From: Patescibacteria group bacterium
Lineage (GTDB): Bacteria > Patescibacteriota > Patescibacteriia > CAIXNZ01
Assembly (NCBI GenBank): GCA_041651155.1
Contig: JBAZJU010000008.1
Location: 1,932 to 65,931, forward strand
Direction: 5' to 3'
Length of the DNA: 64,000 bases
A model generated the notes under the pieces. The model searched no databases, was not told the DNA's origin, and saw only the letters and a list, made by a program, of their open reading frames with translations. Below are positions 12,708-64,000 of the stretch, one piece after another. A program made the translations under genes and the position numbers. Position 1 is the stretch's first letter, and the number at the start of each line of letters is the position of its first letter.

Positions 12708-12744
12708 TAAATTCTTTCAATAAATTATTCTTAAAATTTATACT

Positions 12745-13791
12745 CTAAAAATTACCTACGACTGTAATCGTCACTGTCTGAGCATAAGCGCCTGCCGGGG
12801 TTGTGCCAGTGATCACTGCCGCATGGCATAAGGTAGTTGAATCAGCACTCACGGGCGCTGAAGAAGTGGCAAATGACTGGTCACTTGTTGTTAAAGCTGA
12901 ACCTGGCATGGCAGTTGTCAACTGACCATCCAAAGTTGCACAATCAGAGCCTGAATCATTGTCTACTATCGTAGATGATGCATTTGTTGTAGAAATGCCA
13001 TATTCTTCTTCTGTAGAAACTCCGCCGCTATTGGTTACACCCACGGTCGCATCTGCCACATTGGTTATGCTATTTGTGGCATTTCGCAAATTGCCGTCTG
13101 CTTTAATATACGCTGTATAGCCTGAATCAGCATTGGTGCTTACTTCTGTATCATAACTGCAGGTGCTTAAACCTGTTGTGCTTAATGTGCCTAAAGTGCA
13201 GGTAGAGGTAGATAAGGACAGAGTTAATGTTGGCTCAACTGTAGCCGAGATATTTACCTGGTTTAAGCCAACAACTATGGCTGCGCCGCCGCTATCTTCC
13301 TGGGTATCAGCATTGGTATCGCTGCCGCCCCAGGCATTATCAGCGCCCAAATCCCAGGTTGTAATAGCAAAAGAAGCTGAACCGGCAGTAGGATTGGTGA
13401 TATGGTTATTTGAAATCGTAATAGTAATTTGGCCTGAAACCTGATCGCCTTCTGTTGTAATCGGAATTTGCAAATTTTGTCCACTCACACTGGCTGTCCC
13501 CTTGGTGATATCTGTGGTTGTATGAGTTTGAGTAACTGCCACATCACCGTTAACTACGTTAGAAATGACATAGCCTGCCGGAAAAGTAATTTTAATGCCA
13601 TCCCCGCTATTTATATTGCCGTCAGGATTAAAAATAATCGTGGCATTTGTCGCTGCGCTGGCAGTGTAATTTGATAAAGTAATGCTCACCACGCTTATAC
13701 CGCCGGCTAAGGCTGGCAAAGCAGTAAAAGTGTTTAATACCATCAATAAAACCGCCAGTACAATTGAAAAAAATTTAAAATGTTTGTTCAT
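12745..13791 (-). CDS. secreted surface protein, paralog family (variable N-domain plus conserved C-terminal domain ending VVGNF)
   Basis: 348 aa. Signal peptide MNKHFKFFSIVLAVLLMVLNTFTALPALA. TWDLGADNAWGG motif. The C-terminal ~170 aa is nearly identical to the paralogs, with conserved Cys pairs. Confidence 0.7.
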   Translation of the reverse strand: MNKHFKFFSIVLAVLLMVLNTFTALPALAGGISVVSITLSNYTASAATNATIIFNPDGNINSGDGIKITFPAGYVISNVVNGDVAVTQTHTTTDITKGTASVSGQNLQIPITTEGDQVSGQITITISNNHITNPTAGSASFAITTWDLGADNAWGGSDTNADTQEDSGGAAIVVGLNQVNISATVEPTLTLSLSTSTCTLGTLSTTGLSTCSYDTEVSTNADSGYTAYIKADGNLRNATNSITNVADATVGVTNSGGVSTEEEYGISTTNASSTIVDNDSGSDCATLDGQLTTAMPGSALTTSDQSFATSSAPVSADSTTLCHAAVITGTTPAGAYAQTVTITVVGNF

Positions 13792-28497: not shown

Positions 28498-29172
28498 TTA
28501 AGTTTCTATATTATCAATTAATTCGGGGGAATTTAAACTCGTGTATTGCCAATTTTTTGGCAGGCCATGCTTCAAATGGTTATAAACCGTGTAATCATAA
28601 TGGTTGTCCCAATCCTTCTGTTTTTTCAAATGGTTATCATGGAAACGGATGTAATGGTCGTAAAATTTTCTCTGCCACTTGAATTTAGGGTACGGCGTTC
28701 CATTTTTAAATTTTTGATTAAATAAATCTTGATACCGCTGAACATCAAATTTCCATACATATAATTCATGGGGATTTAATATGGGTAGTCCAATAATCTT
28801 ACCTTTAAAAACATCCCCCATTCCCCGTAGGCCACACAATATTGTGTGGCCTACGGGGTTATTGGGATAATTATTTGTATAACCCATTATAATATTAATA
28901 TTGCGAGAAACATTTCTTTTCAAAGATTTCATCACGTGCGAAATATCAAATTTATTGTTTGGTTCAATCATCAAATTCACATGATCATAAATAATTGAAA
29001 AGGCATATAATTTAAATCCTTTCAATACTTTACAAATCTTTAAATTCTCAATAAATAAATCACAAAAAATTTGCTCCTTAAAATATGGGTAATTATTTTT
29101 CGTCTTAAACACGACGTAATAAATCGCGCCCGGGAAACAAATTCGCCTTATGGAATTTTTATGCAACATCAT
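28498..29172 (-). CDS. IS200/IS605-family Y1 (HUH) transposase-like protein, RAYT-like, probably catalytically degenerate
   Basis: 224 aa. Aligns to IS200 TnpA blocks: IYYVVFKTKNNYPYF matches YHIVFAPKYRR; YDHVNLMIEPNNKFDISHVMKSLKRNVS matches ADHIHMLLEIPPKMSVSSFMGYLKGKSS. The HUH motif reads HVN and the catalytic Tyr block is disrupted. Contains a 36-bp perfect palindrome. Confidence 0.6.
   Translation of the reverse strand: MMLHKNSIRRICFPGAIYYVVFKTKNNYPYFKEQIFCDLFIENLKICKVLKGFKLYAFSIIYDHVNLMIEPNNKFDISHVMKSLKRNVSRNINIIMGYTNNYPNNPVGHTILCGLRGMGDVFKGKIIGLPILNPHELYVWKFDVQRYQDLFNQKFKNGTPYPKFKWQRKFYDHYIRFHDNHLKKQKDWDNHYDYTVYNHLKHGLPKNWQYTSLNSPELIDNIET
28823..28858. repeat. 36-bp perfect palindrome inside the transposase-like CDS, with a GTAG head (ccccGTAGgccacacaatattgtgtggcCTACgggg)
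   Basis: Read directly from the sequence. In frame (12 codons, PVGHTILCGLRG) and located where the catalytic Tyr block of IS200 TnpA should be. Confidence 0.9.
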
Positions 29173-30343
29173 TTTCTTCCTTTAAAAAATAATTCTTCAA
29201 CTGCGAAATCTGCCAAATCAAAACCGTATTTAAAGTTAAAATTATTACAAATATTAAAATCAAGGAATTGCCGCCTAAAAATATACCGCCCATAATTGCC
29301 ACAATTGAGGCGCCAATAATCGTCACTATATTATCCATGGCCACGCCAACCACAGCATCCCCTATTCTGCCATTGGGATGGACGGAAAAATTATGTACCA
29401 CAATCATTTCACCTAGACAGCCAATAACACCGGCTAAAACACCGGCAATCACATAAGGCAAGTTGGTTATTTCACACAAAGTTTCAATTGAGCGAACCAT
29501 GCTTTCAGCTGCCATCAAGATTGCCAAGCCGCTGATTAATAAATATCCCCAGATAATTAAATTACTCTTGGTTTTAAAATATCCTTCCTCTTCAACAATT
29601 TCTTCAACCGGACTTTTAGCTCTTTTAGTTTTCCTAAAATAATATAAAATAAAAATTCCCAAAAGCAAAATTAAAAAACCAACCGGCCTAATTAACTGGT
29701 AAAGATCAGATTCAATCCCAGCTGGTTTTATTTTTACCTGGCCAAAAATAACCATGCTTAAAGCAACTATTGCGGTTAGAATAGTCAGAGCCATTGAAAT
29801 ATTAATTGCAGTGTCAAATTCTGATAGCAATGGCTTGCGCTGATGATCTTTAATCGGCTTAACAGTTCCGCCAAATTTTAATTTGGGAAACATCAGGACA
29901 CTAACGCCTTTGGCATTTGCTAAATTTTGCCGAAAAATGCACCAGGCAGCATGTCCAATATTATAAACATTTGAGCCAAAAGTTGTGGCCGCGGCAATTA
30001 TGGCATAATTAATAGCTAAAGCAAAATCTGTTTGTCTTAAGCTAACGCTGACAAGAGCGGCCACAATGCCTAAAACCATATCAGGAAAGGCAGTGCCAAA
30101 AGATTGCAATAAGCCTCCGGCCAATTTTGTTCTTTCCGTTAAAACACCCGTTGTTTCTTCAATAATTTTGGCAGTCCCTCTTAAAATAAAGAATGCGCCC
30201 AATCCCAAAATAGCAACAACTGCAAATATTCTGATAAAAATATTATGCGGCTCCCCTAATAAATTCATGAGGTAAAAACGCAAAACAAAAGCGCCTGCCA
30301 ATAAGACCAAAACATAAATTAAGTGATTTTTAAATAATTTCAT
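29159..30343 (-). CDS. Ca2+/cation antiporter (CaCA, YrbG-like) family membrane protein
   Basis: 394 aa, polytopic. Two alpha-repeat-like motifs: GTAFPDMVLGIVAAL and GCLGEMIVV. Confidence 0.6.
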   Translation of the reverse strand: MKLFKNHLIYVLVLLAGAFVLRFYLMNLLGEPHNIFIRIFAVVAILGLGAFFILRGTAKIIEETTGVLTERTKLAGGLLQSFGTAFPDMVLGIVAALVSVSLRQTDFALAINYAIIAAATTFGSNVYNIGHAAWCIFRQNLANAKGVSVLMFPKLKFGGTVKPIKDHQRKPLLSEFDTAINISMALTILTAIVALSMVIFGQVKIKPAGIESDLYQLIRPVGFLILLLGIFILYYFRKTKRAKSPVEEIVEEEGYFKTKSNLIIWGYLLISGLAILMAAESMVRSIETLCEITNLPYVIAGVLAGVIGCLGEMIVVHNFSVHPNGRIGDAVVGVAMDNIVTIIGASIVAIMGGIFLGGNSLILIFVIILTLNTVLIWQISQLKNYFLKEENDVA

Positions 30344-49929: not shown

Positions 49930-50910
49930 TTATTTGGTGCTTAAAATGGTTATTCTAACTTTCCCTAAATCACTTTGTTTGGGTAAGTGTTTTAATAAAC
50001 CATTTTTGGCTCCCATTCTCTGGATTACCCCATTGGCGTTTAAAATTGCTAAACGCAAACCATAATCCCAATCATTTTTTAATATCATCCCGGTACAAAA
50101 ACCAGAACCAAAAGCATCGCCAGCGCCTGTTGTATTAATCGCTTTGCTGCTTAGAGCCTTTGTATAGTAAATTAAGGTGCCATCACTTAAATAAGCGCCA
50201 TTAGCGCCATCTGTGACAAGATTATAACCCGGGCTTAAGTGATTTAATTCCTTAAAAATTGCTTTAATTTCTTTTTGGCCAGTTAACTTTTGCGCCTCCT
50301 CTTTATTTAGATTAAAAATATAAGTCTGCCTAATTAAGTTTTTTAATTTTTTAATTCCTAAATTCAACTCATCACTTCCCGGGTTCCAGCTGATTTTAAT
50401 TTTCTTCTTTTTGGCAAATGCAAAAATTTTATTCAATAATTTTAAATTGCCGGCTAAAGAAGTGAGATAAAACCATTTGGTTTTTAATTTTGGCCAATTA
50501 ATTTCTTTTTCAGAAAAATTAGCGCTGGCGCCGCGATAAACCAAAACTGTCCGATCTCCTTCGGGCATTAATAAAATTGTAGAATAGGCGGTTTTATGAT
50601 TTTTGTCAGCGATTAACTGGCTGATATCTATTTTTTTATCAGCCAAGGTGTGCATTATCTCCAAGCCATAGATATCCTTGCCCACGCGCGAAACAACCGC
50701 CGGGCTTAAGCCCAAATTGGCAAAAGTGTAAACGGAATTAGTGGCTCCCCCGCCTGTATCAAAATAAATATCACCTAATTCAACTTTGGAGCCATAAGCA
50801 AAGCATTCCCCCACTCCGGTTTTAAATTCACTGGATTTAATTAATTTAAAATTTTTGGATACTAAAAATACATCTTTAGTGGAAGAACCGATGGATATAA
50901 TGTCGTGCAT
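49930..50910 (-). CDS. PfkB-family carbohydrate/nucleoside kinase
   Basis: 326 aa. Motifs GGGATNSVYTFANLG and TTGAGDAFGSGFCTG. Confidence 0.8.
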   Translation of the reverse strand: MHDIISIGSSTKDVFLVSKNFKLIKSSEFKTGVGECFAYGSKVELGDIYFDTGGGATNSVYTFANLGLSPAVVSRVGKDIYGLEIMHTLADKKIDISQLIADKNHKTAYSTILLMPEGDRTVLVYRGASANFSEKEINWPKLKTKWFYLTSLAGNLKLLNKIFAFAKKKKIKISWNPGSDELNLGIKKLKNLIRQTYIFNLNKEEAQKLTGQKEIKAIFKELNHLSPGYNLVTDGANGAYLSDGTLIYYTKALSSKAINTTGAGDAFGSGFCTGMILKNDWDYGLRLAILNANGVIQRMGAKNGLLKHLPKQSDLGKVRITILSTK

Positions 50911-50949
50911 AAGTATAGGTTAATTTTGTTATTAATGAAAACTATTAAA

Positions 50950-51418
50950 CACGGATTATTTTCACGGATGCGCACGGATATTTTTCTAGTTAATTATTCG
51001 TTTAACTCTGACCCCATCCTTATTAAATATTATCAGTAAACCCAGCCTTAAATGATTCGCTTTTAAATAACTAAGGACTTGCTTAATATCCTTAGTATAG
51101 AATTCATTTGCCAGTTTTAATTCCACAACAATTTTATTTTCAATTACAAAATCCATGTAATATTTGGCTATAATCCTGCCATCGTACTTAATGTGCACAC
51201 AACATTCTTTCTTAAACTTTAAACCAGCATTTTCGTATTCAATTTGATGTGCCCTTTGAAGTACCTTCTCTCTATGCCCAAAACCCAACATATTATGAAC
51301 AGTATAAGATACGCCAATTATCTGTCGGGTCAATTCATAATATAATAAATCTTCTTCCCTAACTTTATTGTAAAAAAATCTGATAGATATCCGTGAAATC
51401 CGTGATTAAAATCCGTGA
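50950..51418. mobile_element. ~470-bp cassette bounded by inverted arrays of three CACGGAT heptamers, carrying a GxxExxY gene
   Basis: Left array: cacggatt (50950), cacggatg (50963), cacggata (50973). Right array: atccgtga at 51389, 51398 and 51411. Each array abuts the gene within 5-55 nt. Confidence 0.5.
50986..51333 (-). CDS. GxxExxY-family protein (PD-(D/E)XK-like), paralog 1
   Basis: 115 aa. The C-terminal 60 aa are near-identical to 52403..52774 (KQVLSYLKANHLRLGLLIIFNKDGVRVKRIIN). The N-terminal GxxExxY motif is degenerate here (GFGHREKVL). Confidence 0.55.
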   Translation of the reverse strand: MTRQIIGVSYTVHNMLGFGHREKVLQRAHQIEYENAGLKFKKECCVHIKYDGRIIAKYYMDFVIENKIVVELKLANEFYTKDIKQVLSYLKANHLRLGLLIIFNKDGVRVKRIIN

Positions 51419-51425
51419 TTCATAG

Positions 51426-52310
51426 TTAACCTTTCTTTTGTCTTACCCACAATTCAATAAAATACATAAAATTCTTCGCAATCAAACCAATCGCCTTTTG
51501 TTTATTTATTTTTTTATCCCTCCATCTTTCCAAAGGCCCATAAAAAATTGTTCGTCCCACAGCAAAACCAATAATTTCTTTAAACTTGTCTGCTGTTTTT
51601 AACCATTGGCTCACCAACTCTTTTGAACCAGCTCGACCCAAGACAATTATTTTTTCATCCTTGCCAATTAGTTTAATAATTTTTTGCCAGTCACTGTCTT
51701 TGTACATTGCTTCCAATTTCCAAATATCTGGTTTTACACCAAAAGCGCGTATTTCTTTAATTGCCTGGCAAGTTAGAGCCGGCCGAGCTTTGAGGTCATA
51801 ACTCTTTTTGTATTTTTTTAACTGAGCTGGTTCGCTCGGCACCAGGAGTTCAAAGAGAAATCCAATTTTCTTTCTTTTACAAAAGTCATTCAAAACTTTT
51901 AAACGTTTCAATTGAATCTGATTATCTTTTTTATTTATCGGATTATAACGTACCAAAACTTTGGCATAATCTGGCTTAAACTTCAAAATATGCGCGCCAA
52001 ATGTAGAACCATACTCAAAATCAAAAACATTCTGACCGCTTTTTTCAGTGGTTAAAATAGTTACTGCACCAAATTTCTTGGCTGAGCGTAAAATTTCTGT
52101 GCCAAACTCTTCATCAACTAAAACCCCCAACGCTTCCTTGCTTTTACTTTTGCTCCAAACTGCTTTAAACGCCTGCCAGATCATTTCTTTAGCTTCTTTT
52201 ACCTTATTATGCTGAGCTTTTGTCAAAGGCTCCTTAAAGCCAAATAAACCAGTGGCAAATGTCGCCCGATGGTCAAAAGGTAAGATGTAAAGTTGTTTAG
52301 GATCTTTCAT
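51426..52310 (-). CDS. class-I aldolase-like TIM-barrel protein (LacD / DUF2090-like)
   Basis: 294 aa. LYILPFDHRATF resembles the LacD/DUF2090 N-terminus (ALAFDQRGAL). Sandwiched tightly between the two GxxExxY cassettes. Confidence 0.4.
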   Translation of the reverse strand: MKDPKQLYILPFDHRATFATGLFGFKEPLTKAQHNKVKEAKEMIWQAFKAVWSKSKSKEALGVLVDEEFGTEILRSAKKFGAVTILTTEKSGQNVFDFEYGSTFGAHILKFKPDYAKVLVRYNPINKKDNQIQLKRLKVLNDFCKRKKIGFLFELLVPSEPAQLKKYKKSYDLKARPALTCQAIKEIRAFGVKPDIWKLEAMYKDSDWQKIIKLIGKDEKIIVLGRAGSKELVSQWLKTADKFKEIIGFAVGRTIFYGPLERWRDKKINKQKAIGLIAKNFMYFIELWVRQKKG

Positions 52311-52342
52311 ATATAAAGTAATATAATTAGAATTCTATGAAA

Positions 52343-52866
52343 CACAGATTTATACTCACTGATTACACTGATAAAATAAATAATCCACAGTCTGGAATAA
52401 TATTAATTTATTATTCTTTTTACTTTTACTCCATCCTTATTAAATATTATCAACAAACCTAATCTTAAATTATTAGCTTTCAAATAGCTCAAAACTTGTT
52501 TTACGTCTTTTGTATAAAAATCATTAGCTATCTTTAATTCTACCACCACTTTACCCTCTACAACAAAATCCATATAATACTTGCCAATTAATCTATCGAG
52601 ATAGAAAATTCTTACAGGAAATTCACTTTTAAAACTTATCCCTTGATCTTTAAATTCTTCCGCATATGCCCGATGATAAACCTTTTCCCGATAACCAAAC
52701 CCCAATTCGTTATAAACTTTAAATGAAATCCCAATAATCTTCTCCGTCAAATCTTCGTATAAAAACTCTTCCATACAAAATTTTTAAATGCAAATTATAA
52801 TTTATAGTATCTGTGAGCAGAATCAATGGTTCTTAAATCTGTGCAATCAGTGAATCAAATCAGTGG
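52343..52866. mobile_element. ~520-bp cassette bounded by inverted arrays of CACAGAT/CACTGAT heptamers, carrying a GxxExxY gene
   Basis: Left array: cacagatt (52343), cactgatt (52357), cactgata (52367), cacagtct (52386). Right array: atctgtga (52809), atctgtgc (52837), atcagtga (52846), atcagtgg (52859). Confidence 0.5.
52403..52774 (-). CDS. GxxExxY-family protein (PD-(D/E)XK-like), paralog 2
   Basis: 123 aa. Canonical motif GFGYREKVY (G-x-x-E-x-x-Y). Confidence 0.65.
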   Translation of the reverse strand: MEEFLYEDLTEKIIGISFKVYNELGFGYREKVYHRAYAEEFKDQGISFKSEFPVRIFYLDRLIGKYYMDFVVEGKVVVELKIANDFYTKDVKQVLSYLKANNLRLGLLIIFNKDGVKVKRIIN

Positions 52867-52876
52867 TTCCGTTATC

Positions 52877-53833
52877 CTATTTAAGTAATTTTCTTACTGC
52901 CTCAATTATTCCTTTAGTGTTCAAACCATATTTATCCAAAAGTTCTTTTCCCGTTCCCGATTCCCCAAATTTATCAGGCATACCAATTATTTTCATGGCT
53001 ACTGGATAATTTTGCGCCAAAACTTCTGCCACTGCGCTGCCTAATCCCCCATTTACCTGATGATCTTCAATTGTCACGACCCGATTTGTCTTTTTAGCTG
53101 ACTTAATGATTGTCTGCTTATCAATTGGTTTAATTGTATGGCAATTAATCACTTCTGCGCTAATTTTCTGTTTAGCTAATTCATCAGCAACCAAGAGAGC
53201 ATCATAAACCAAGGCACCGCAAGCAATAATTGTAATATCTTTTCCAGCGCGCAAAATTTCTGCGTGGCTGATTTTAAATTTTGAATTTTTATTTGTAATG
53301 ACAGGACTTTTGTCCCTGCCATAGCGAATATAAACAGGACCTTTGAATTTTGCAGCTGCCAAAACTGCTTTTTTTGTTTCCTCATAATCACAAGGTGCAA
53401 TTACAATCATATTGGGTAAAACTCGCATTAAAGCTATATCCTCTAAAGCCTGATGAGTGGCACCATCTTCGCCAACATTTAAACCAGCATGAGAACTGAC
53501 TATTTTAACATTGGCATTATTATAGCAAACTGAAAGGCGAATTTGTTCCCAATTTGTGCCAGGTGAAAAGACCGCAAATGAACAGATGAAAGGAATTTTC
53601 CCTTCCAAAGCCAAACCAGCTGCGACTCCTGCCATATTTTGTTCAGCGACACCAACTTCAATAAATCGACTTTGATATTTTTTCCCAAATTCAAGACAAC
53701 GAGTTGATTCAGCTAAATCAGCGCTGACAACTACCACATTTTTATTCTTTTTACCCAAAACCAAAAGCGCCGTGCCCAACCCATCTCGGCAAGCCTTTAA
53801 TTCTGGCTGTTTTGTTATTTGTGATTTGATCAT
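52877..53833 (-). CDS. transketolase, C-terminal subunit (pyrimidine-binding and C-terminal domains)
   Basis: 318 aa. Transketolase Pyr-domain alignment (FIEVGVAEQNMAGVAAGLA). Confidence 0.9.
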   Translation of the reverse strand: MIKSQITKQPELKACRDGLGTALLVLGKKNKNVVVVSADLAESTRCLEFGKKYQSRFIEVGVAEQNMAGVAAGLALEGKIPFICSFAVFSPGTNWEQIRLSVCYNNANVKIVSSHAGLNVGEDGATHQALEDIALMRVLPNMIVIAPCDYEETKKAVLAAAKFKGPVYIRYGRDKSPVITNKNSKFKISHAEILRAGKDITIIACGALVYDALLVADELAKQKISAEVINCHTIKPIDKQTIIKSAKKTNRVVTIEDHQVNGGLGSAVAEVLAQNYPVAMKIIGMPDKFGESGTGKELLDKYGLNTKGIIEAVRKLLK

Positions 53834-54006
53834 TGGATACTGTACTAATTACTAATTTTTAATTTATAATTTTAAAATAATTTCTAATGTTATAATTTTA
53901 AAATTTAGACATTAAATCATTTACTAAAAATTAATCATTTAATCATTAGATCATTGATTAAAAATTAAAAATTTATAATTAAAAATTAAACACAAGCAAT
54001 ATAGAC

Positions 54007-54828
54007 CTAACGGCTCAATTCCTCAAGTGCTTTTTCTGCCTCAATTTTTGATGGAGCTTTCCCGTGCCAGTTATAATCATTTTCCATAAAACTCACGCCT
54101 TTGCCGGGAATTGTGTGGGCGATTATAACTTTTGGCTTACCTTTTGTTTTTTTTGCCTTAATTAAGGCAGCCAAAATTTCTTTCATATTATTGCCATCAA
54201 TTTGCTGCACATGCCATTTAAAAGCTAAATATTTTTGATGCAAATGAGTCAAGGGCATTATTTTTTCAGTAAACCCGTCAATCTGAATCATATTGCGGTC
54301 TAAAATAAAAATTAAATTATCCAATTTGTATTTGGCAGCTGTCATGATTGCTTCCCAGGTTTCGCCTTCATCATGTTCTCCGTCACTAGTTACGCAATAA
54401 ATAAAATGTTTTTGTTTATTCATTTTCGCAGCCAAGGCCTTACCCACTGCCACTGAAACTCCTTGACCAAGTGGGCCTGAAGAACTTTCTAAAGCTGGCA
54501 GATCAAGATATGAAGGATGGCCTTGTAGTTTAGACCCTAATTTACGCAAGGTTTTTAACCAAGACAAAGGGAAATAACCAGCCCTAGCCATGGCAGCATA
54601 TCTAATTGGGCAAATATGGCCACATGATAAAATCAAACGATCTCTTTTGTCCCACAGCAGCTTTTTCGGGTCATGATTTAAAACATTAAAATATAAAGCG
54701 CTAAAAACATCAGCCATGCCTAAAGGACCCGCTGTATGGCCACTCCCTGCCTCAACCAGCATTTTAATCACATCTTGACGCAAAGTATTGGCCATTTTCT
54801 TAAGTTGTGCTAGGTTATATTTTTTCAT
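54007..54828 (-). CDS. transketolase, N-terminal subunit (TPP-binding)
   Basis: The ORF track extends to 54879. The likely start is MKKYNLAQLKK at 54828. Motifs GSGHTAGPLGMADV and GDGE-type TSDGEHDEGETWEA. Confidence 0.85.
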   Translation of the reverse strand: MKKYNLAQLKKMANTLRQDVIKMLVEAGSGHTAGPLGMADVFSALYFNVLNHDPKKLLWDKRDRLILSCGHICPIRYAAMARAGYFPLSWLKTLRKLGSKLQGHPSYLDLPALESSSGPLGQGVSVAVGKALAAKMNKQKHFIYCVTSDGEHDEGETWEAIMTAAKYKLDNLIFILDRNMIQIDGFTEKIMPLTHLHQKYLAFKWHVQQIDGNNMKEILAALIKAKKTKGKPKVIIAHTIPGKGVSFMENDYNWHGKAPSKIEAEKALEELSR

Positions 54829-55249
54829 TTTTATTAAAATACTCTCTATTTCTAAAAAGATAAATACTGCAGATGCCAAAAATAAATTTAGTTATAAATA
54901 TACCGTTTAATAATGATATTTCTTCATAATAACCGTAAAGAAACAAAAATATAATTTTAAAAATTTCCCAAAAGAATAAAAATAAAGCCGGAATAATTAC
55001 AAAGTATAGAGCCCAATTTCTTAATCTGTACAAAAAAATTCCTCCTATAAAACAATAAATAACAATTGCTATTGATTCAATAATCATTTCAAATAATGCT
55101 GGAAAATAATTTATAAAAACATCATACTTTATTATCAAATAAATAGTAGCAAGAAAATAAACAATACCAACAAATAATAAAATAACTGCAAAAATTCTGG
55201 CGAATTTATTAACATTTTTTATTTTATTCATATATTTATATTTCTTCAT
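54815..55249 (-). CDS. hypothetical membrane protein (144 aa)
   Basis: Four TM helices. Very AT-rich. ORF only. Confidence 0.3.
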   Translation of the reverse strand: MKKYKYMNKIKNVNKFARIFAVILLFVGIVYFLATIYLIIKYDVFINYFPALFEMIIESIAIVIYCFIGGIFLYRLRNWALYFVIIPALFLFFWEIFKIIFLFLYGYYEEISLLNGIFITKFIFGICSIYLFRNREYFNKNEKI

Positions 55250-59759: not shown

Positions 59760-62204
59760 TCACAATTCAACTGTCTCCCCTTCATTAACTTTCTTTGCAT
59801 CCCCCAGCAAGTCAACTGACGGCATTTTTTCTTTTTTAGGCAGCTCCTCTTTCTTTACAATTTTAACTTCAGGTTCCTTCTTAACCTCCTTGCTTTTATC
59901 TATAGTGAGTTCTGGCTTAACTACTTTTATTTCCGACTCTTTTACTGGCTCTTTTGGTTTTTCCACTTTATTTTCAAGAGTTGGCTTCTTTTCCATATCC
60001 TCCCTAGCCTTTTTATCCACCATAGCTTTCCTGACTTCCGTAGCTTTTTTATCAGCCATAGCTTTAGCGTCGGCTGAAGCGTAGGAAGTAGCGGAGGTGG
60101 AGGCGAAGGAGGGCTTAATTGCCTCATTTTTAATTTCTGGCATTTTAATTTCTTTTGGTTTTTCTACGGGTTTTATCTCCACCTTAATCTTTGGGGTCTC
60201 AATTTTAGCTTTCTCTGGCTTTTCTAAAATAGGCTTGGCCGGTTCAGCTTTAACTTCTTGGACTTTCAACGCCTTAATCTCTGGCTTGAAAATTTCTTTT
60301 GGCTTGGCCATTGGTTTTATTTCTGCTTTAATTACAGGCTTTGACTCGGCCATGACTCTTGGTTTTTCAACTTTTTTTTCATCTTTCTTAATTTCTGGTT
60401 TATCTGGCTTCTCTGTCGGATTAGCTTTAATTTCCCATGGTTTAACTATTTCCTTTTTCCAAGCCTCGTCTTTTTGTTGCCCTTCTTCCCCTTTTTGCTC
60501 CTTTCTCCCGTTTTGCCCTTCTTTTATCGGCTTACCCCCAAAATCCACTGTTTGTTTTTTTATTTCAACCAAAGAAACGGGCGGCTTTTCAACCTTTTTA
60601 ATATCCTCCGAAGCCTTGGCGAAGGAGGACATTTTAATGTCACCGCGACGCGCTTTTTTCAAACAATCCTTACAATAAACTGGCCTAACATTATCAGGCT
60701 TAAATGGCACCTCAACTTCATTTCCGCAATTATAACAAAGAGCCTGATACTTTGGCCCGGTTGAAGATTTTGACATTTCTTCTTCATTTTTTTTGCCAAT
60801 AGGCCGTTCTTCTCTTCTACCTTCCTGTCTTTTGGCAAAAACATCAACTGTGACGCCTGACTCCCTATCTTTGTCAGTTAATTTTGCCTCGGCTTTGTTA
60901 CCAGAACTCCAGCGCATTATTTTATCTTCTACCACATCACGCGGTTTAGTATAGCGCTCACGCGAGGCACGAATAGCTTTTTCTTCATTACCCAAAGATT
61001 CGCCATAAACCGGGGGCAAGCCTTTGGCTGAAAAAGGCTCTGAGGTTACGCCATCAATCATCAACTTTGTATAAAAATTATATTTCGGCAAATTAACTAA
61101 ATCTTCTGGCAAAATATTTGGCGCAAATTCATTTTCCAAAAATTCAGCATCTTCTGCTCCCACGCGAAAACAAATAATGGTGCCCACATTGCCAAAAACA
61201 GCAGGCTTAACCACTTCACCCAGCTGTTCAATATATTGGTGGGCGATTATCAAGTTTAAACGGTATTTGCGGGCTTCTGATAAAATATTGGCAAAAGAAT
61301 CGGTAGCAAAATTTTGAAATTCATCCACATATAGGTAAAAATCTTTTCTGATATCTTCTTGAATATCAACACGGCTCATGGCTGATAATTGTATTTTAGT
61401 AACCATCATTGCGCCCAATAAAGCTGAAGCATCCTCGCCGATTCTGCCTTTAGATAAATTTAAAATTAAAATTTTCCCCTCATCCATGACCTTGCGCAAG
61501 TCAATTGATGATCTGACCTGTCCAACAATATTTCTGATTAAAGCAGTTGATAAAAACTGGCCGACCTTATTTTGAATAGGCGAAATAACCTCTTGCAAAA
61601 CGCGATCATTCCACTTAGTAAACTCATCCAGCCAAAAGGAGCGCACCACAGGATCCTGGACTTTATCTACTACTTTTTTACGATAAACCTTATCTACTAA
61701 AATGCGGTTAATCCCGAGCAAGGTGCTATCGGGATATTCTAACAAAGCCAAAATAGCATTGCGCAAAATATATTCCAAACGAGGCCCCCAAGAATCAGCC
61801 CACTGTTTTTTAAATACCCCGATCAAGCCTGAAGAAATTAAGTGCCGATATTCTGGCGCGACTTTTTCCAGCACATTGAAAGAAATGGGGAAATTAATAT
61901 CAGACGGATTAAAATAAATCACATCATTAATACGATTGGAAGGAATCCAACCCAGCATTTTTTCTGCGGTATCACCATGAGGATCAACATAACAAACGCC
62001 ATGCCCGGCAATAATATCAGAATAAACCATATTTTCAATCAAAGTGGTTTTGCCCATGCCGGTTTTTCCAATTACATAAACATGGCGCCTGCGGTCATCT
62101 ATTTTAATGCCAAAAACCCTTTCGCGATTTCTAAAAGTGGTCACCGCAAATGGCGTAACTCCGGCTTGCATTGCCTTATGCATTTGTAATCTTTCTTCTG
62201 ACAT
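59760..62204 (-). CDS. AAA_10 (VirB4/TraG-VirD4/HerA-like) P-loop ATPase with a zinc ribbon and a ~300-aa K/E/P-rich repeat tail
   Basis: 814 aa. Walker A YVIGKTGMGKTT, then CYVDPHGD (the AAA_10 D-P-K/H-G-E/D box). Walker B YLYVDEFQNF. HQ motif LIIAHQYIEQL. Zinc ribbon CYNCGNE...CKDC. C-terminal PEIK/KPxE repeats. Confidence 0.6.
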   Translation of the reverse strand: MSEERLQMHKAMQAGVTPFAVTTFRNRERVFGIKIDDRRRHVYVIGKTGMGKTTLIENMVYSDIIAGHGVCYVDPHGDTAEKMLGWIPSNRINDVIYFNPSDINFPISFNVLEKVAPEYRHLISSGLIGVFKKQWADSWGPRLEYILRNAILALLEYPDSTLLGINRILVDKVYRKKVVDKVQDPVVRSFWLDEFTKWNDRVLQEVISPIQNKVGQFLSTALIRNIVGQVRSSIDLRKVMDEGKILILNLSKGRIGEDASALLGAMMVTKIQLSAMSRVDIQEDIRKDFYLYVDEFQNFATDSFANILSEARKYRLNLIIAHQYIEQLGEVVKPAVFGNVGTIICFRVGAEDAEFLENEFAPNILPEDLVNLPKYNFYTKLMIDGVTSEPFSAKGLPPVYGESLGNEEKAIRASRERYTKPRDVVEDKIMRWSSGNKAEAKLTDKDRESGVTVDVFAKRQEGRREERPIGKKNEEEMSKSSTGPKYQALCYNCGNEVEVPFKPDNVRPVYCKDCLKKARRGDIKMSSFAKASEDIKKVEKPPVSLVEIKKQTVDFGGKPIKEGQNGRKEQKGEEGQQKDEAWKKEIVKPWEIKANPTEKPDKPEIKKDEKKVEKPRVMAESKPVIKAEIKPMAKPKEIFKPEIKALKVQEVKAEPAKPILEKPEKAKIETPKIKVEIKPVEKPKEIKMPEIKNEAIKPSFASTSATSYASADAKAMADKKATEVRKAMVDKKAREDMEKKPTLENKVEKPKEPVKESEIKVVKPELTIDKSKEVKKEPEVKIVKKEELPKKEKMPSVDLLGDAKKVNEGETVEL

Positions 62205-62207
62205 ATT

Positions 62208-63995
62208 TTAATCTATAAAAGGTAAATTCCCAGGAATCCCTGATTTTTCCTTGCCCTCAGTCCTGTCTGCCCCGGCCTTAGCAAAGGCAGAAGATTTACT
62301 CGTCTTGGCAGAGGCCGGAGCAAAGGATGATTTTTCTGCTTCAGTTTTATCAGCCTCTTTCAGCGGCGATTTCTTTGTATTTTTATCTTTAGTTTTTTTA
62401 TCAGCTTTTATTGCCTCCATCTCTGTTTTTTTAATCTTCTCTAATCTAACAGCATCTTCTTTGGCTACCTCTTTAAGCTTTTCTTCTCTGGCTGGCCTGC
62501 CTTTTTTAAACGCCTCCTTATCTTTGGCAAACTGCATTTCAAAAGTATCATTATCATAATCAAACGATGGAACAACCTGGGTCTTTTCAGCAATAACCTC
62601 GCTCACCTGCTTTGGCCTTGCGGCTTGAGTGGCAACACCAAACGGCAAATCAGCTGGCGCCGCTGCTTTTCTAAATTCAGTTTTTCTAAGCAATGGCGAT
62701 TTAACATACATGCTTGGGAAGTGCCATAAAGAAGCCAATTCTTCACTGCACATAGGCTTGGCAGGATCGCCCATGACCCCATCTCTTGAGATATAACCGC
62801 CCAATAGCCAGTTTCTTCTGGTATTGCGCCTATATTCAATTAAAATATACTGGGGCGCATTTGTCCCAGTAGGTTTTAAGTCTGGTTTTAAGCTGTTTGC
62901 ATTCATATCTGACCATTGTTTAATTACCCCAACCATGCCATTAACACCTAAAGATTTATTCATCTTGTCTTTTTCAGCGACATAAATATATCTTATCTTT
63001 GTATTAAAAGCTAATTTAGAAATTTTACGTTCAATTAGTTCAAGCTGTTCCTTTTGCCCAGGCGTTAAATTCATCATGCGAAAGGGCTGATCCTCTTTTT
63101 TATTATTACCAGTTTCATCGGTTGATGGTCCGAGTATCTGGTTAGAAAATTCGCTGGCAATACCTGTCCCCATTTCAGCCATCCCTCCCAAAATGCCCTT
63201 TTTTTTCTCTTCCGGCGGTATTTTTAAAATTTTATTTATAACCTTTTCTCCGCCTTCTCTGCCCCAATCTACAGCTAATGGTCTAATTAGAATCTGCAGC
63301 CACATCTGTTCGCCTGGACCAATCTGGCTCATATTTTCAAGCATCGCAGCCATGGGATCAACAAAAACCTCTGAAAATCTATGCTCAAATTTAGTATAAG
63401 TTTTAATCGGCAAGTAAACATTTTTATTACTTAACGTAAATTCACAGCCCCAAATATCATGGGTATCATTAGGATACCAACGCGGCACTGAATGAGTATA
63501 ATCTTCAACTTCTGTTATTTCAGCATCAGGAAACTGTGACCATACTGCTGCTTCCACTAAATTTCTCCAGTGGCTTGGAGTTCTAATTATAAACTGGACA
63601 TTGCCTTCAATGCTGACAATTTCGCACGAAAAGCTAAGCTGAAAAACGCCAACAATGTATTTTTCCCATTTATTAATGGTAGCATGAGCACCTTGCAAAT
63701 GGTCAAAAAAATTTTCCATGGCTTGGACGCTCTGCTCATTCATTTTTGGCACATCTATAGCCAAATAAGTCATTTTAACCGTTTGAGCAAACCACCTGTT
63801 CTGGATATAATCCATATATTCCGGAAAAATTAATTCTACTATAAATACATATACAATAAGCAGCCAACCCCAGTATTTAAACAAAAACAACCAGACCACT
63901 GCATAGGCAGTAGGCGCAGTCGTAAAATCATAAGCCACTTGATTTACAAATTGGCTAATGAAAGATATAATTGGACTTAAATCAATCACAAACAT
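62208..63995 (-). CDS. large membrane protein, unknown function, translationally coupled upstream of the AAA_10 ATPase
   Basis: 595 aa. N-terminal TM helices. The K/E-rich C-terminal tail ends ...SSFAPASAKTSKSSAFAKAG..., resembling the PSFASTSATSYASADAKA motif in the ATPase tail. Confidence 0.4.
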   Translation of the reverse strand: MFVIDLSPIISFISQFVNQVAYDFTTAPTAYAVVWLFLFKYWGWLLIVYVFIVELIFPEYMDYIQNRWFAQTVKMTYLAIDVPKMNEQSVQAMENFFDHLQGAHATINKWEKYIVGVFQLSFSCEIVSIEGNVQFIIRTPSHWRNLVEAAVWSQFPDAEITEVEDYTHSVPRWYPNDTHDIWGCEFTLSNKNVYLPIKTYTKFEHRFSEVFVDPMAAMLENMSQIGPGEQMWLQILIRPLAVDWGREGGEKVINKILKIPPEEKKKGILGGMAEMGTGIASEFSNQILGPSTDETGNNKKEDQPFRMMNLTPGQKEQLELIERKISKLAFNTKIRYIYVAEKDKMNKSLGVNGMVGVIKQWSDMNANSLKPDLKPTGTNAPQYILIEYRRNTRRNWLLGGYISRDGVMGDPAKPMCSEELASLWHFPSMYVKSPLLRKTEFRKAAAPADLPFGVATQAARPKQVSEVIAEKTQVVPSFDYDNDTFEMQFAKDKEAFKKGRPAREEKLKEVAKEDAVRLEKIKKTEMEAIKADKKTKDKNTKKSPLKEADKTEAEKSSFAPASAKTSKSSAFAKAGADRTEGKEKSGIPGNLPFID

Positions 63996-64000
63996 ATTGT

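What the first reader, a model, noticed from the sequence alone, without database searches (positions are those of the whole stretch)
59760..63995. AAA_10/T4CP-like ATPase with zinc ribbon and a 300-aa K/E/P repeat tail, coupled to a 595-aa membrane protein that shares a C-terminal SFAxxSA motif
The ATPase core has Walker A GKTGMGKTT, the D-P-H-G-D box, Walker B DEFQNF and an HQ motif. This places it in the VirB4/VirD4/TraG/HerA (AAA_10) clade used by type IV secretion or conjugation and DNA-pumping systems. It is followed by a C4 zinc ribbon and a long low-complexity tail of PEIK/KPKE repeats. The upstream gene (4-nt gap, so translationally coupled) encodes a polytopic membrane protein with a K/E-rich tail ending SSFAPASAKTSKSSAFAKAG. 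That echoes PSFASTSATSYASADAKA in the ATPase tail, so the two proteins may share a binding module. No VirB4/VirB6/relaxase genes are visible before the window ends. The pair could be part of a DNA-uptake or translocation machine, as reported for CPR/Saccharibacteria T4SS-like clusters, or a novel two-component translocase.
Basis: partly seen in the sequence, partly recalled or inferred. Interest (0 to 1): 0.65.

Follow-up and report, generated by a model that had tools for sequence, protein, structure and literature searches.

The report
Split membrane-tethered coupling-protein-like ATPase pair
Two adjacent genes in this Patescibacteria (CPR) genome encode the two halves of one motor, a membrane-anchored domain and a TrwB-like ATPase; the family is already catalogued in almost all Patescibacteria, lies outside any secretion gene cluster, and has no known job.

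Summary
Both genes are real. By sequence and predicted fold it is a TrwB/VirD4-type coupling-protein (T4CP) ATPase. It is not FtsK, VirB4 or a terminase.

Three details are wrong. The upstream 595-residue protein is not polytopic: it has one N-terminal hydrophobic anchor and a large soluble domain (Pfam DUF8128). The gap is 3 nt, not 4. The shared SFAxxSA motif is not conserved in homologues.

The DUF8128 model matches only VirB4 (TrwK) among solved structures. Fused TM-DUF8128-ATPase proteins occur in other Patescibacteria and in Bacillus phages (G, CP-51, SPO1-like), so this pair is a split form of one unit.

The truly conserved tail feature is a PPxNLPF peptide. It sits at the domain junction in fused proteins. 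Split partners carry it there and again at the extreme C-terminus, so it is probably a tethered docking peptide.

The pair is a core, highly conserved gene set. It is usually preceded by a Sigma70_r4/HARE-HTH gene and is not in a T4SS cluster. The ATPase family was already reported as an orphan T4CP homologue; the split architecture and the junction peptide appear to be undescribed. Function is inferred: a membrane-docked translocase, probably for nucleic acid.

The parts
62208..63995 (-). Partner gene (595 aa): N-terminal membrane anchor, DUF8128 domain, disordered K/E-rich linker and a C-terminal docking-type peptide.
   Evidence: ORF. The same 595-aa call with PF26449 appears on public contigs. 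There are 1,703 homologues at E<=1e-3 and 2,896 clusters at 50% identity.
63816..63917 (-). The only hydrophobic segment of the partner (about residues 27-60), taken as the membrane anchor. It lies within predicted helices 7-26, 30-40 and 43-72.
   Evidence: The Kyte-Doolittle 19-residue window exceeds 1.6 only at window starts 30-43. Helices are from the AF2 model. Fused paralogues also have a single N-terminal TM segment.
62688..63773 (-). DUF8128 domain (residues 75-436), an alpha/beta fold resembling VirB4 (TrwK).
   Evidence: AF2 pLDDT is mostly above 90. The top 13 Foldseek PDB hits are all TrwK/VirB4, best E 5e-5. hhalign to phage G gp156 residues 15-320 gives probability 96%. BFVD gives gp156 at 9e-17. 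phrog_5156 positions 40-293 match.
62640..62660 (-). First copy of the junction motif (residues 446-452, APADLPF). It lies 19-20 residues after the conserved WHFP.
   Evidence: P447 and P451 are invariant. The motif occupies the same position as the PPxNLP(I/V) junction of fused paralogues.
62238..62639 (-). Variable, mostly disordered K/E/A-rich linker (residues 453-586), with one predicted long helix (about 483-538). It contains the non-conserved SFAPASA and SAFAKAG strings.
   Evidence: pLDDT is below 50 at residues 437-474 and 539-586. Length after WHFP ranges from 26 to 241 residues among homologues. The SFA motif is not conserved.
62211..62237 (-). Conserved C-terminal peptide IPGNLPFID (residues 587-595). 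It is a second copy of the junction motif and is inferred to be a tethered docking peptide.
   Evidence: P592 is invariant and P588, N590 and L591 are at least 90% conserved. The NLP motif is at the C-terminus in nearly all of the 80 species loci. 175 of 235 partners have exactly two motif copies.
59760..62204 (-). ATPase gene (814 aa): TrwB-like T4CP-type ATPase without its own membrane domain, then a zinc ribbon and a long disordered tail.
60870..62204 (-). ATPase core (residues 1-445): a RecA-like nucleotide-binding domain with an inserted all-alpha domain (helices about 117-227). Walker A is at nt 62043-62069, DPHGD at 61971-61985, Walker B at 61308-61325 and HQ at 61236-61241.
   Evidence: AF2 pLDDT is 83.8. 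Foldseek gives TrwB at E 8e-14, TMt 0.62-0.67, about 435 aligned columns. The motifs are invariant in 55 homologues. Identity across Patescibacteria lineages is 73-88%.
60648..60749 (-). CxxC-x17-CxxC treble-clef zinc ribbon (residues 486-519).
   Evidence: PF23477 at 1.2e-12 and TIGR04272 at 1.4e-13, both above their cut-offs. C490, C493 and C511 are invariant and C514 is at least 90% conserved. Zinc binding by this domain type has been shown in M. mazei small proteins (PMC12704099).
59820..60647 (-). K/E/P-rich disordered tail (residues 520-795) with weak internal duplications. Its length and sequence vary between homologues.
   Evidence: Composition and charge are. Total homologue lengths range from 448 to 755 aa.
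59763..59819 (-). Conserved C-terminal motifs of the ATPase (residues 796-814): SVDLL followed by EGETVEL at the extreme C-terminus.
   Evidence: The same motifs end close homologues. A related G-(E/Q)-x-(I/V)-x-(F/L) end is seen in more distant lineages and in some fused paralogues.

Best explanation
The two genes encode one functional unit, a split form of a Patescibacteria-wide family with the architecture TM anchor - DUF8128 - TrwB-like ATPase.

The partner sits in the cytoplasmic membrane through its N-terminal hydrophobic segment. It presents a cytoplasmic DUF8128 domain whose fold resembles VirB4.

The ATPase has no membrane segment of its own. By analogy with TrwB and other members of the superfamily it probably forms a ring (inferred). 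It is probably held at the membrane by the partner (inferred).

Part of that attachment is probably the partner's flexible K/E-rich leash. The leash ends in a PPxNLPF peptide that duplicates the covalent DUF8128-ATPase junction of fused relatives (inferred).

ATP hydrolysis would then drive a polymer through or along the ring at the membrane. The substrate is most likely nucleic acid (inferred). This rests on the TrwB-type all-alpha domain, the zinc ribbon, the net-positive tail and the conserved upstream DNA-binding-type gene.

The unit is a vertically inherited housekeeping component. It is not part of a conjugative element or a T4SS gene cluster.
For: Shown here:
- T4CP-type identity of the ATPase: Pfam PF10412 at 28.2 bits against 20.5 and PF12696 at 25 against 22. 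hhalign to TrwB gives probability 96%, E 3.6e-9, over TrwB residues 118-409. The Foldseek top 29 hits are TrwB, with TMt up to 0.67.
- The ATPase has no hydrophobic segment.
- The partner has one N-terminal hydrophobic segment and then a confident domain. Its only significant matches among solved structures are TrwK/VirB4.
- The two genes are one unit: phrog_5156 covers the partner at profile positions 40-293 and the ATPase at 407-821.
- Phage G gp156 aligns to the partner at residues 15-320 and to the ATPase at about 372-780.
- Fused DUF8128+PF10412 proteins of 725-1142 aa occur in Berkel-, Falkow-, Gottesman- and Saccharibacteria, and the four checked have an N-terminal TM segment.
- The ATPase is the next gene after the partner in 50 of 76 species loci, often with gaps of 1-12 nt.
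- Junction peptide: P..[LIV]P lies 37-46 residues before Walker A in 74 of 90 fused proteins. In split partners the motif sits 19-20 residues after WHFP and again at the extreme C-terminus, after a linker that varies with a post-WHFP length of 26-241 residues.
- Core-gene status: ATPase identity is 73-88% across CPR lineages and more than 8,000 clusters were hit. At least 581 species genomes encode a partner relative. The surroundings are housekeeping genes.
- From the literature: VirD4-type homologues occur in 2,918 of 3,035 Patescibacteria genomes and only 148 of 5,713 lie near virB4 (PMC12102498).
- A Sigma70_r4+HARE-HTH gene lies immediately upstream in 68 of 78 loci.
Against: - No experiment or complex prediction shows that the two proteins bind. 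Adjacency is lost in about a quarter of lineages, for example L035.
- The partner-VirB4 similarity is structural only. TM-scores are low (0.26-0.29 over about 450 columns) and there is no sequence signal. The tool did not show which part of VirB4 is matched.
- The substrate is not established. T4CPs also recruit proteins, the tails are polyampholytes rather than clearly basic, and the zinc-ribbon family has no known function.
- A role with the Patescibacteria T4SS encoded elsewhere cannot be excluded from a 64-kb window.
Confidence: 0.6

Rival explanations
1. It is the genuine coupling protein of the Patescibacteria type IV secretion system. The VirB4/TrsD/VirB3/VirB6/VirB2 genes are encoded elsewhere in the genome. 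The partner supplies the membrane domain, and its VirB4-like domain docks onto the VirB4 hexamer.
For: - The ATPase has a T4CP fold and T4CP sequence signatures.
- The partner's fold resembles VirB4.
- T4CP genes often lie far from virB4, and T4SS genes are present in about 80% of Patescibacteria genomes (PMC12102498).
Against: - T4CP homologues occur in more genomes (2,918) than VirB4 (2,417), and only 148 of 5,713 lie near virB4.
- The S. epibionticum homologue was reported as non-essential although the T4SS is essential.
- Wang et al. saw no recognisable coupling protein in that T4SS cluster.
- No T4SS gene lies in the 64-kb window or near the two fused paralogues examined.
- Relaxases are almost absent from Patescibacteria: 109 in 3,035 genomes.
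Confidence: 0.22
2. It is a functional analogue of FtsK/SpoIIIE: a membrane-anchored DNA pump that clears or segregates chromosomal DNA during division of these very small cells.
For: - It belongs to the same ATPase superfamily.
- It is membrane-tethered and has a long flexible linker, as FtsK does.
- It is a core gene in a housekeeping context, with DNA replication or topology genes near the fused paralogues: dnaX and gyrBA.
Against: - The FtsK_SpoIIIE profile scores 11.9 bits against a cut-off of 24, and only over the P-loop.
- No FtsK gamma domain was detected in the profile searches.
- At least Saccharibacteria papers mention an FtsK of their own.
- The best fold matches are TrwB, and no FtsK appears in the top 50.
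Confidence: 0.1
3. It is a defence or mobile-element module: a HerA/DndH/MADS-type ATPase, or a phage-derived packaging or translocation ATPase carried by a prophage.
For: - PADLOC mad8 matches at 3.9e-22, with weaker HerA hits.
- HerA, DndH-C and TdpAB are among the fold matches.
- The closest profile outside Patescibacteria is a phage family, phrog_5156, at 1.2e-60.
Against: - Conservation of 73-88% identity across lineages, presence in nearly every genome and stable housekeeping synteny are the opposite of what defence or prophage genes show.
- Only 4 relatives were found in 2.9 million viral contigs.
- The MADS profiles were built from HHpred alignments against PDB, so they are probably generic for this ATPase fold.
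- No nuclease, methylase or phage structural gene lies nearby.
Confidence: 0.04

Closest known systems
TrwB / VirD4 / TraD / TraG type IV coupling proteins (Pfam PF10412 TrwB_AAD_bind, PF12696 TraG-D_C, PF02534 T4SS-DNA_transf)
   Same: - It has a RecA-like nucleotide-binding domain with an inserted all-alpha domain.
- It has the Walker A and B motifs and the DPxGD box next to the P-loop.
- TrwB is the best fold match (TMt up to 0.67) and the best profile match (probability 96%).
- Like F-plasmid TraD (my own knowledge), it has a long disordered C-terminal extension that ends in a short conserved peptide.
   Different: - The ATPase chain has no N-terminal transmembrane domain; the anchor is on a separate protein.
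- An extra DUF8128 domain belongs to the unit.
- It carries a zinc ribbon.
- It is chromosomal, near-universal and highly conserved, rather than carried on a mobile element.
- No relaxase or mating-pair genes lie nearby.
- No NCBIfam T4CP model reaches its cut-off (best 44.7 bits against 366).
VirB4 / TrwK ATPases, including the split TrsD+TrsE arrangement of pGO1
   Same: - A large N-terminal domain precedes a C-terminal P-loop ATPase, about 800 aa in fused form.
- The partner's only significant PDB matches are TrwK.
- In pGO1 a VirB4-N-terminal-like protein (TrsD, 227 aa) is encoded just upstream of the ATPase TrsE. That parallels the split seen here.
   Different: - The ATPase half resembles T4CPs, not the VirB4 C-terminal domain. 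hhalign to TrwK matches only the P-loop, and VirB4 is absent from the top 50 fold matches.
- The partner has no sequence similarity to TrwK or TrsD.
- TIGR00929 scores 14.5 bits against a cut-off of 643.
phrog_5156 proteins of Bacillus phages (phage G gp156, CP-51 gp91, JL, and SPO1-like phages); function unknown
   Same: - They have the same two modules in the same order, fused in one chain of 825-913 aa.
- This is the best profile match for both window proteins.
- gp156 itself carries PF26449.
   Different: - They are fused, and gp156 aligns with the partner only from the start of the DUF8128 domain (gp156 residue 15 to partner residue 76), so it has no counterpart of the N-terminal anchor region.
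- No zinc ribbon or K/E tail was seen.
- Identity is only 22-31%, and they are encoded by virulent phages.
Fused TM-DUF8128-ATPase paralogues of Patescibacteria, annotated 'type IV secretion system DNA-binding domain-containing protein', 'TraM recognition domain-containing protein' or 'ATP-binding protein'
   Same: - They come from the same phylum and have the same domains.
- The four checked have an N-terminal anchor.
- They carry the same PPxNLP junction motif.
- They sit in a housekeeping context.
   Different: - They are a single chain with no zinc ribbon (no PF23477).
- No second copy of the motif on a leash was looked for or seen.
- They share about 25% identity with phage gp156. Their identity to the window proteins was not measured.

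Membership tests
Type IV coupling protein (VirD4/TrwB/TraD/TraG) | P-loop nucleotide-binding domain with Walker A and B motifs and T4CP sequence signatures (Pfam PF10412, PF12696 or PF02534 above the gathering score). | tested here: met
   PF10412 scores 28.2 bits (cut-off 20.5) and PF12696 scores 25.0 (cut-off 22). hhalign to TrwB gives probability 96%. The motifs are invariant.
Type IV coupling protein (VirD4/TrwB/TraD/TraG) | All-alpha domain inserted in the nucleotide-binding domain, with an overall TrwB-like fold. | tested here: met
   The AF2 model has a helical insertion at about residues 117-227. The Foldseek top 29 hits are TrwB, TMt 0.62-0.67 over about 435 columns.
Type IV coupling protein (VirD4/TrwB/TraD/TraG) | N-terminal transmembrane domain in the same polypeptide. 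| tested here: not met
   No 19-residue window of the ATPase exceeds Kyte-Doolittle 1.6. The anchor is on the separate partner, or at the N-terminus of fused paralogues.
Type IV coupling protein (VirD4/TrwB/TraD/TraG) | Genomic and functional association with a T4SS (VirB4 and channel genes), a relaxase, or both. | tested here: not met
   No such genes lie in the 64-kb window or in the 1.5 kb of public contig sequence upstream of the partner gene. In the literature only 148 of 5,713 homologues lie near virB4. A functional association could not be tested.
Type IV coupling protein (VirD4/TrwB/TraD/TraG) | Match to a curated NCBIfam T4CP model above its cut-off. | tested here: not met
   The best scores are TIGR03743 at 44.7 bits against 366 and NF045973 at 42.7 against 250.
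Type IV coupling protein (VirD4/TrwB/TraD/TraG) | Hexameric ring with ATP-dependent substrate recruitment or translocation. | not testable with these tools
   Only monomer models could be built.
VirB4 family ATPase | VirB4-type N-terminal domain. | tested here: inconclusive
   The top 13 Foldseek PDB hits are all TrwK, with E from 5e-5 to 4e-3. TMq is only 0.26-0.29, however, the matched region of TrwK was not shown, and there is no sequence signal.
VirB4 family ATPase | VirB4-type C-terminal ATPase domain (TIGR00929, PF03135 or AAA_10). | tested here: not met
   TIGR00929 scores 14.5 bits against 643. hhalign to TrwK matches only 22 P-loop columns. VirB4 is absent from the top 50 fold matches. 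PF12846 is on record for only one of the 120 listed homologues (P0048).
FtsK/SpoIIIE | FtsK_SpoIIIE motor domain (PF01580) and a gamma winged-helix domain. | tested here: not met
   PF01580 scores 11.9 bits against 24, over the P-loop only. No FtsK_gamma hit was found.
HerA / DUF87 helicase-translocases | DUF87 central domain above its cut-off, a HAS-barrel and a NurA-type partner. | tested here: not met
   PF01935 scores 17.3 bits against 23.2. HerA ranks below TrwB in the fold search. No nuclease gene lies nearby.
DUF8128 (PF26449) - T4CP-like ATPase family of Patescibacteria and Bacillus phages | A DUF8128 domain followed, in the same chain or in the next gene, by the T4CP-like ATPase, with a P-x-x-(L/I/V)-P junction motif. 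| tested here: met
   PF26449 is precomputed for the partner. phrog_5156 covers both proteins. The junction motif is present. The local Pfam copy lacks this model, so the Pfam score could not be recomputed.
CxxC-x17-CxxC zinc-binding domain (TIGR04272 / PF23477) | Four cysteines with the family spacing and a score above the cut-off. | tested here: met
   TIGR04272 scores 50.3 bits against 36 and PF23477 scores 47.7 against 27. The cysteines are conserved.

The most novel reading that the evidence does not exclude
The DUF8128-plus-T4CP-like unit may be a T4SS-independent membrane translocase specific to Patescibacteria and inherited by all of them.

It could, for example, be the motor that imports host-derived DNA or RNA into these nucleotide-auxotrophic episymbionts, or one that exports nucleic acid or protein.

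In evolutionary terms it would be a surviving intermediate that joins a VirB4-type N-domain to a coupling-protein-type motor. That would bear on how the two T4SS ATPases diverged.

The duplicated junction peptide on a leash would be a new way of reassembling a split AAA+-like motor.
Probability: 0.15. Interest if true: 0.85.

Novelty: new variant of a known kind. Interest (0 to 1): 0.5.

Why it matters
Patescibacteria make up a large share of bacterial diversity. They live on other cells and cannot make their own nucleotides. How they move macromolecules across their envelope is an open question.

A published survey found coupling-protein homologues in 96% of their genomes. Almost none were next to T4SS genes, and the authors could only say the genes might have been 'exapted for other functions'.

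The analysis here makes that orphan concrete:
- It belongs to a unit with a membrane-anchored VirB4-like domain.
- The unit exists in both fused and split forms.
- It carries a conserved junction or docking peptide.
- It keeps a conserved neighbour with DNA-binding-type domains.
- It has relatives in large Bacillus phages.

These are specific handles for experiments in the two cultivable Saccharibacteria systems: pull-downs, peptide mutants and depletion. They also help the study of how VirB4 and coupling proteins evolved.

For this particular window, though, the locus is an ordinary member of a very common family.

Tried and rejected
- **SFAxxSA shared module.** It is present here but not conserved, and no DNA repeat links the two sites. 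Rejected as a family feature.
- **Polytopic partner.** Rejected; there is one hydrophobic segment.
- **Stop-codon read-through or programmed fusion.** Both genes share a frame here, separated by TAA AAT. Only 14 of 55 relatives share a frame, which is what chance predicts. Rejected.
- **Partner as a TrsD homologue.** hhalign to pGO1 TrsD gives probability 1.2%. No support.
- **Sequence-level link of the partner to TrwK.** None was found.
- **PADLOC mad8 lead.** The MADS paper gives no function for mad8 in its text. Its profiles were built from HHpred and PDB alignments, so the hit is probably generic. Dropped.
- **Viral origin.** Only 4 relatives appeared in IMG/VR. One is 65% identical and is probably a CPR fragment; the others are stand-alone ATPases at 25-38% identity.
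- **True tandem repeat in the tail.** Only weak, short duplications were found.
- **Look-up of the 1011-aa ORF.** Nothing was on record because the called gene starts elsewhere.
- **Literature.** No paper mentions DUF8128. The searches for FtsK in Patescibacteria were uninformative.

Full report
**1. What is in the sequence**

Two ORFs lie head to tail on the minus strand. One runs 62208-63995 (595 aa) and the other 59760-62204 (814 aa). Identical gene calls are found on independent public contigs.

Upstream of the 595-aa gene the frame stays open to the end of the window. A public contig shows a stop only nine codons further up, so the gene is essentially complete in the window.

The stop of the first gene and the ATG of the second are separated by 3 nt (TAA AAT ATG), not 4.

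The window comes from a Patescibacteria (CPR) genome. The 595-aa protein is identical to NCBI locus WC460_05955, labelled 'Patescibacteria group bacterium'.

**2. The ATPase**

- Walker A, GKTGMGKT
- DPHGD
- Walker B, DEFQNF
- HQ
- the four cysteines of the zinc ribbon

Profile and structure evidence on its family:
- Pfam places the protein in the coupling-protein families TrwB_AAD_bind and TraG-D_C, both above their gathering scores.
- The CxxC-x17-CxxC zinc ribbon also scores above its cut-offs.
- FtsK_SpoIIIE, DUF87 and VirB4 models match only the P-loop, below their cut-offs.
- No curated NCBIfam T4CP model is reached.
- A profile of the family aligns with TrwB over residues 118-409, with probability 96% and E 3.6e-9. 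It aligns with the VirB4 protein TrwK over only 22 P-loop columns.
- The AF2 model has mean pLDDT 83.8. TrwB takes its 29 best solved-structure matches, with E down to 8e-14, TM-score 0.62-0.67 by target length and about 435 aligned columns. HerA, Cag-beta, DotL and DndH-C follow.

The chain has no hydrophobic segment. It is therefore a T4CP-type ATPase that lacks the N-terminal membrane domain that canonical T4CPs carry.

After residue 445 the chain continues as follows:
- a disordered stretch of about 40 residues;
- the zinc ribbon (486-519);
- a tail of about 295 residues rich in K, E and P.

The tail has only weak internal duplications. Its length and sequence vary among homologues.

The extreme C-terminus is conserved. 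Close relatives end in SVDLL...EGExVEL. More distant ones end in G-(E/Q)-x-(I/V)-x-(F/L).

**3. The partner**

The 595-aa protein is not polytopic. It has one hydrophobic stretch, at about residues 27-60. After it comes a confidently predicted alpha/beta domain (residues 75-436, pLDDT mostly above 90). Disordered K/E-rich sequence follows.

The public collection annotates it as Pfam DUF8128 (PF26449). My Pfam copy does not hold that model, and no paper in the library mentions it.

Its only significant matches among solved structures are the 13 top hits. All are TrwK/VirB4 of plasmid R388, with E from 5e-5 to 4e-3. Three things limit this evidence:
- The TM-scores are low (0.26-0.29).
- There is no sequence-level signal to TrwK or to the VirB4-N-terminal-like TrsD of pGO1.
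- I could not see which part of VirB4 is matched.

I therefore call the domain VirB4-like with moderate confidence.

**4. The two genes are one unit**

- The phage family phrog_5156 (824 profile positions) covers the partner at positions 40-293 and the ATPase at positions 407-821.
- Bacillus phage G gp156 (825 aa) aligns with the partner over its residues 15-320 (hhalign probability 96%; Foldseek E 9e-17). It aligns with the ATPase over about residues 372-780.
- CP-51 gp91, phage JL and SPO1-like phages carry the same fusion.
- A search seeded with gp156 found many fused DUF8128+TrwB_AAD_bind proteins of 725-1142 aa inside Patescibacteria. They come from Berkelbacteria, Falkowbacteria, Gottesmanbacteria and Saccharibacteria.
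- Four of the six Patescibacteria fused proteins I checked have a single N-terminal TM segment.
- The two fused paralogues I examined lie among housekeeping genes, not T4SS genes. One is next to dnaX and serS, and the other lies about 3 kb from gyrB-gyrA.

The window therefore holds the split form of the architecture TM - DUF8128 - ATPase.

**5. The conserved tail feature**

Composition-preserving shuffles rarely produce them. They are nevertheless absent from 120 of 120 ATPase homologues and from 118 of 120 partner homologues. No DNA repeat links the two sites.

What is conserved is a P-x-x-(L/I/V)-P motif:
- In fused proteins, PPxNLP(I/V) lies at the DUF8128-ATPase junction. It sits 37-46 residues before Walker A in 74 of 90 proteins.
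- In stand-alone partners the motif lies 19-20 residues after the conserved WHFP. Here that copy is APADLPF, residues 446-452.
- A second copy lies at the extreme C-terminus. Here that copy is IPGNLPFID. It follows a linker whose length varies, with 26-241 residues after WHFP. 175 of 235 partners have exactly two copies.

I infer that the C-terminal copy is a tethered docking peptide that replaces the lost covalent junction. This inference has not been tested.

**6. Distribution and context**

- The ATPase core is 73-88% identical across Uhr-, Buchanan-, Falkow- and Moranbacteria and other Parcubacteria. The search saturated at 8,000 clusters.
- The partner family has 2,896 clusters at 50% identity. 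Relatives occur in at least 581 species genomes.
- In 80 species loci the ATPase is the next gene in 50 of 76 cases.
- A gene with Sigma70_r4 and HARE-HTH domains is the preceding gene in 68 of 78 cases.
- secD and secF precede that gene in about 30 loci.
- In about a quarter of lineages the partner is followed by glycosyltransferase genes instead of the ATPase.

The 64-kb window itself holds housekeeping genes and no VirB4, VirB6 or relaxase:
- an ATP synthase operon
- aminoacyl-tRNA synthetases
- mreBC and a PBP2 gene
- pentose-phosphate genes
- an AddA-like helicase

Beyond position 64000 lies the Sigma70_r4/HARE-HTH gene.

**7. What is already known**

Quinonero-Coronel et al. 2025 (PMC12102498) reported the following:
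- There are 5,713 VirD4-type homologues in 2,918 of 3,035 Patescibacteria genomes.
- Only 148 of them lie near virB4.
- VirB4 is present in 2,417 genomes.
- The S. epibionticum homologue is non-essential although the T4SS is essential.

Wang et al. 2023 saw no recognisable coupling protein in that T4SS cluster.

The ATPase family is therefore known and annotated as an orphan. I found no description of three things: the DUF8128 partner as its other half, the coexistence of split and fused forms, or the junction peptide.

**8. Mechanism**

Shown:
- The ATPase has a T4CP-type fold and motifs.
- It has no membrane segment of its own.
- Its partner carries a membrane anchor and a VirB4-like domain.
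- The two are fused in relatives.
- The junction motif is conserved and duplicated.
- The pair is a core gene set.

Inferred:
- The ATPase forms a ring that is held at the membrane by the partner.
- The NLPF peptide docks it.
- ATP hydrolysis moves a polymer, probably nucleic acid.
- The conserved C-terminal peptide of the ATPase recruits another factor. This would resemble the way the C-terminal tail of F-plasmid TraD binds TraM (my own knowledge). The neighbouring HARE-HTH protein is a candidate.

Rivals:
- It could be a true coupling protein for the distant T4SS.
- It could have an FtsK-like role.
- It could be a defence or phage module.

The last is poorly compatible with the conservation and synteny. 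The first cannot be excluded from this window.

**9. Verdict**

The T4SS/conjugation context and the SFA module are not.

The locus is one ordinary member of a very common family in Patescibacteria. The family itself is an unusual, functionally unexplained variant of the coupling-protein/VirB4 theme.

Noticed in passing
beyond the window end; L001:345-1421 (+), about 116 nt upstream of the partner gene: A 358-aa protein with an N-terminal Sigma70_r4 domain and a C-terminal HARE-HTH domain is the gene immediately upstream of the partner in 68 of 78 species loci. That makes it a more constant neighbour than the ATPase itself. In about 30 loci secD and secF precede it. It could be a regulator or a DNA-binding adaptor of the system.
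   Followed up: partly
window 28498-30343 (-): An IS200-type Y1 transposase gene (224 aa, PF01797) overlaps a 394-aa ORF that has no Pfam hit. The arrangement suggests an IS200/IS605-like element with a TnpB-like partner.
   Followed up: no
window about 50000-53000 (-); L001:12759-15603: Two small PDDEXK_3 genes flank a DUF2090 gene, next to a PfkB-family kinase gene.
   Followed up: no
window 7163-13791 (-): A 1170-aa surface-type protein with repeated Laminin_G_3 domains is preceded by ORFs of 690 and 348 aa that have no Pfam hit. The 690-aa ORF overlaps it by 41 nt.
   Followed up: no
window 60090-60110 (ATPase residues 699-705) and P0125 residues 526-532: The heptapeptide SFASTSA occurs in this ATPase's tail and also in the tail of the partner protein of an 82%-identical relative. 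It is not conserved in either family. The coincidence is unexplained.
   Followed up: partly
L095:9519-9998 and L096:9651-9995: Small ORFs of 159 and 114 aa, with no Pfam hit and no hydrophobic segment, end 3-5 nt before the fused TM-DUF8128-ATPase paralogues in a Falkowbacteria and a Saccharibacteria genome. They may be an additional subunit.
   Followed up: partly
L007:2223-3872 (Bacillus phage G gp155): The gene just upstream of the fused gp156 is annotated 'VirB-like'. Its predicted structure also resembles the DUF8128 partner (Foldseek E 1e-5). Phage G therefore carries a stand-alone copy and a fused copy of this domain side by side.
   Followed up: no
window 52877-54879 (-): Transketolase is encoded as two separate genes, one for the N-terminal half and one for the pyrimidine-binding and C-terminal half. 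A 144-aa hydrophobic ORF overlaps the start of the N-terminal gene.
   Followed up: no
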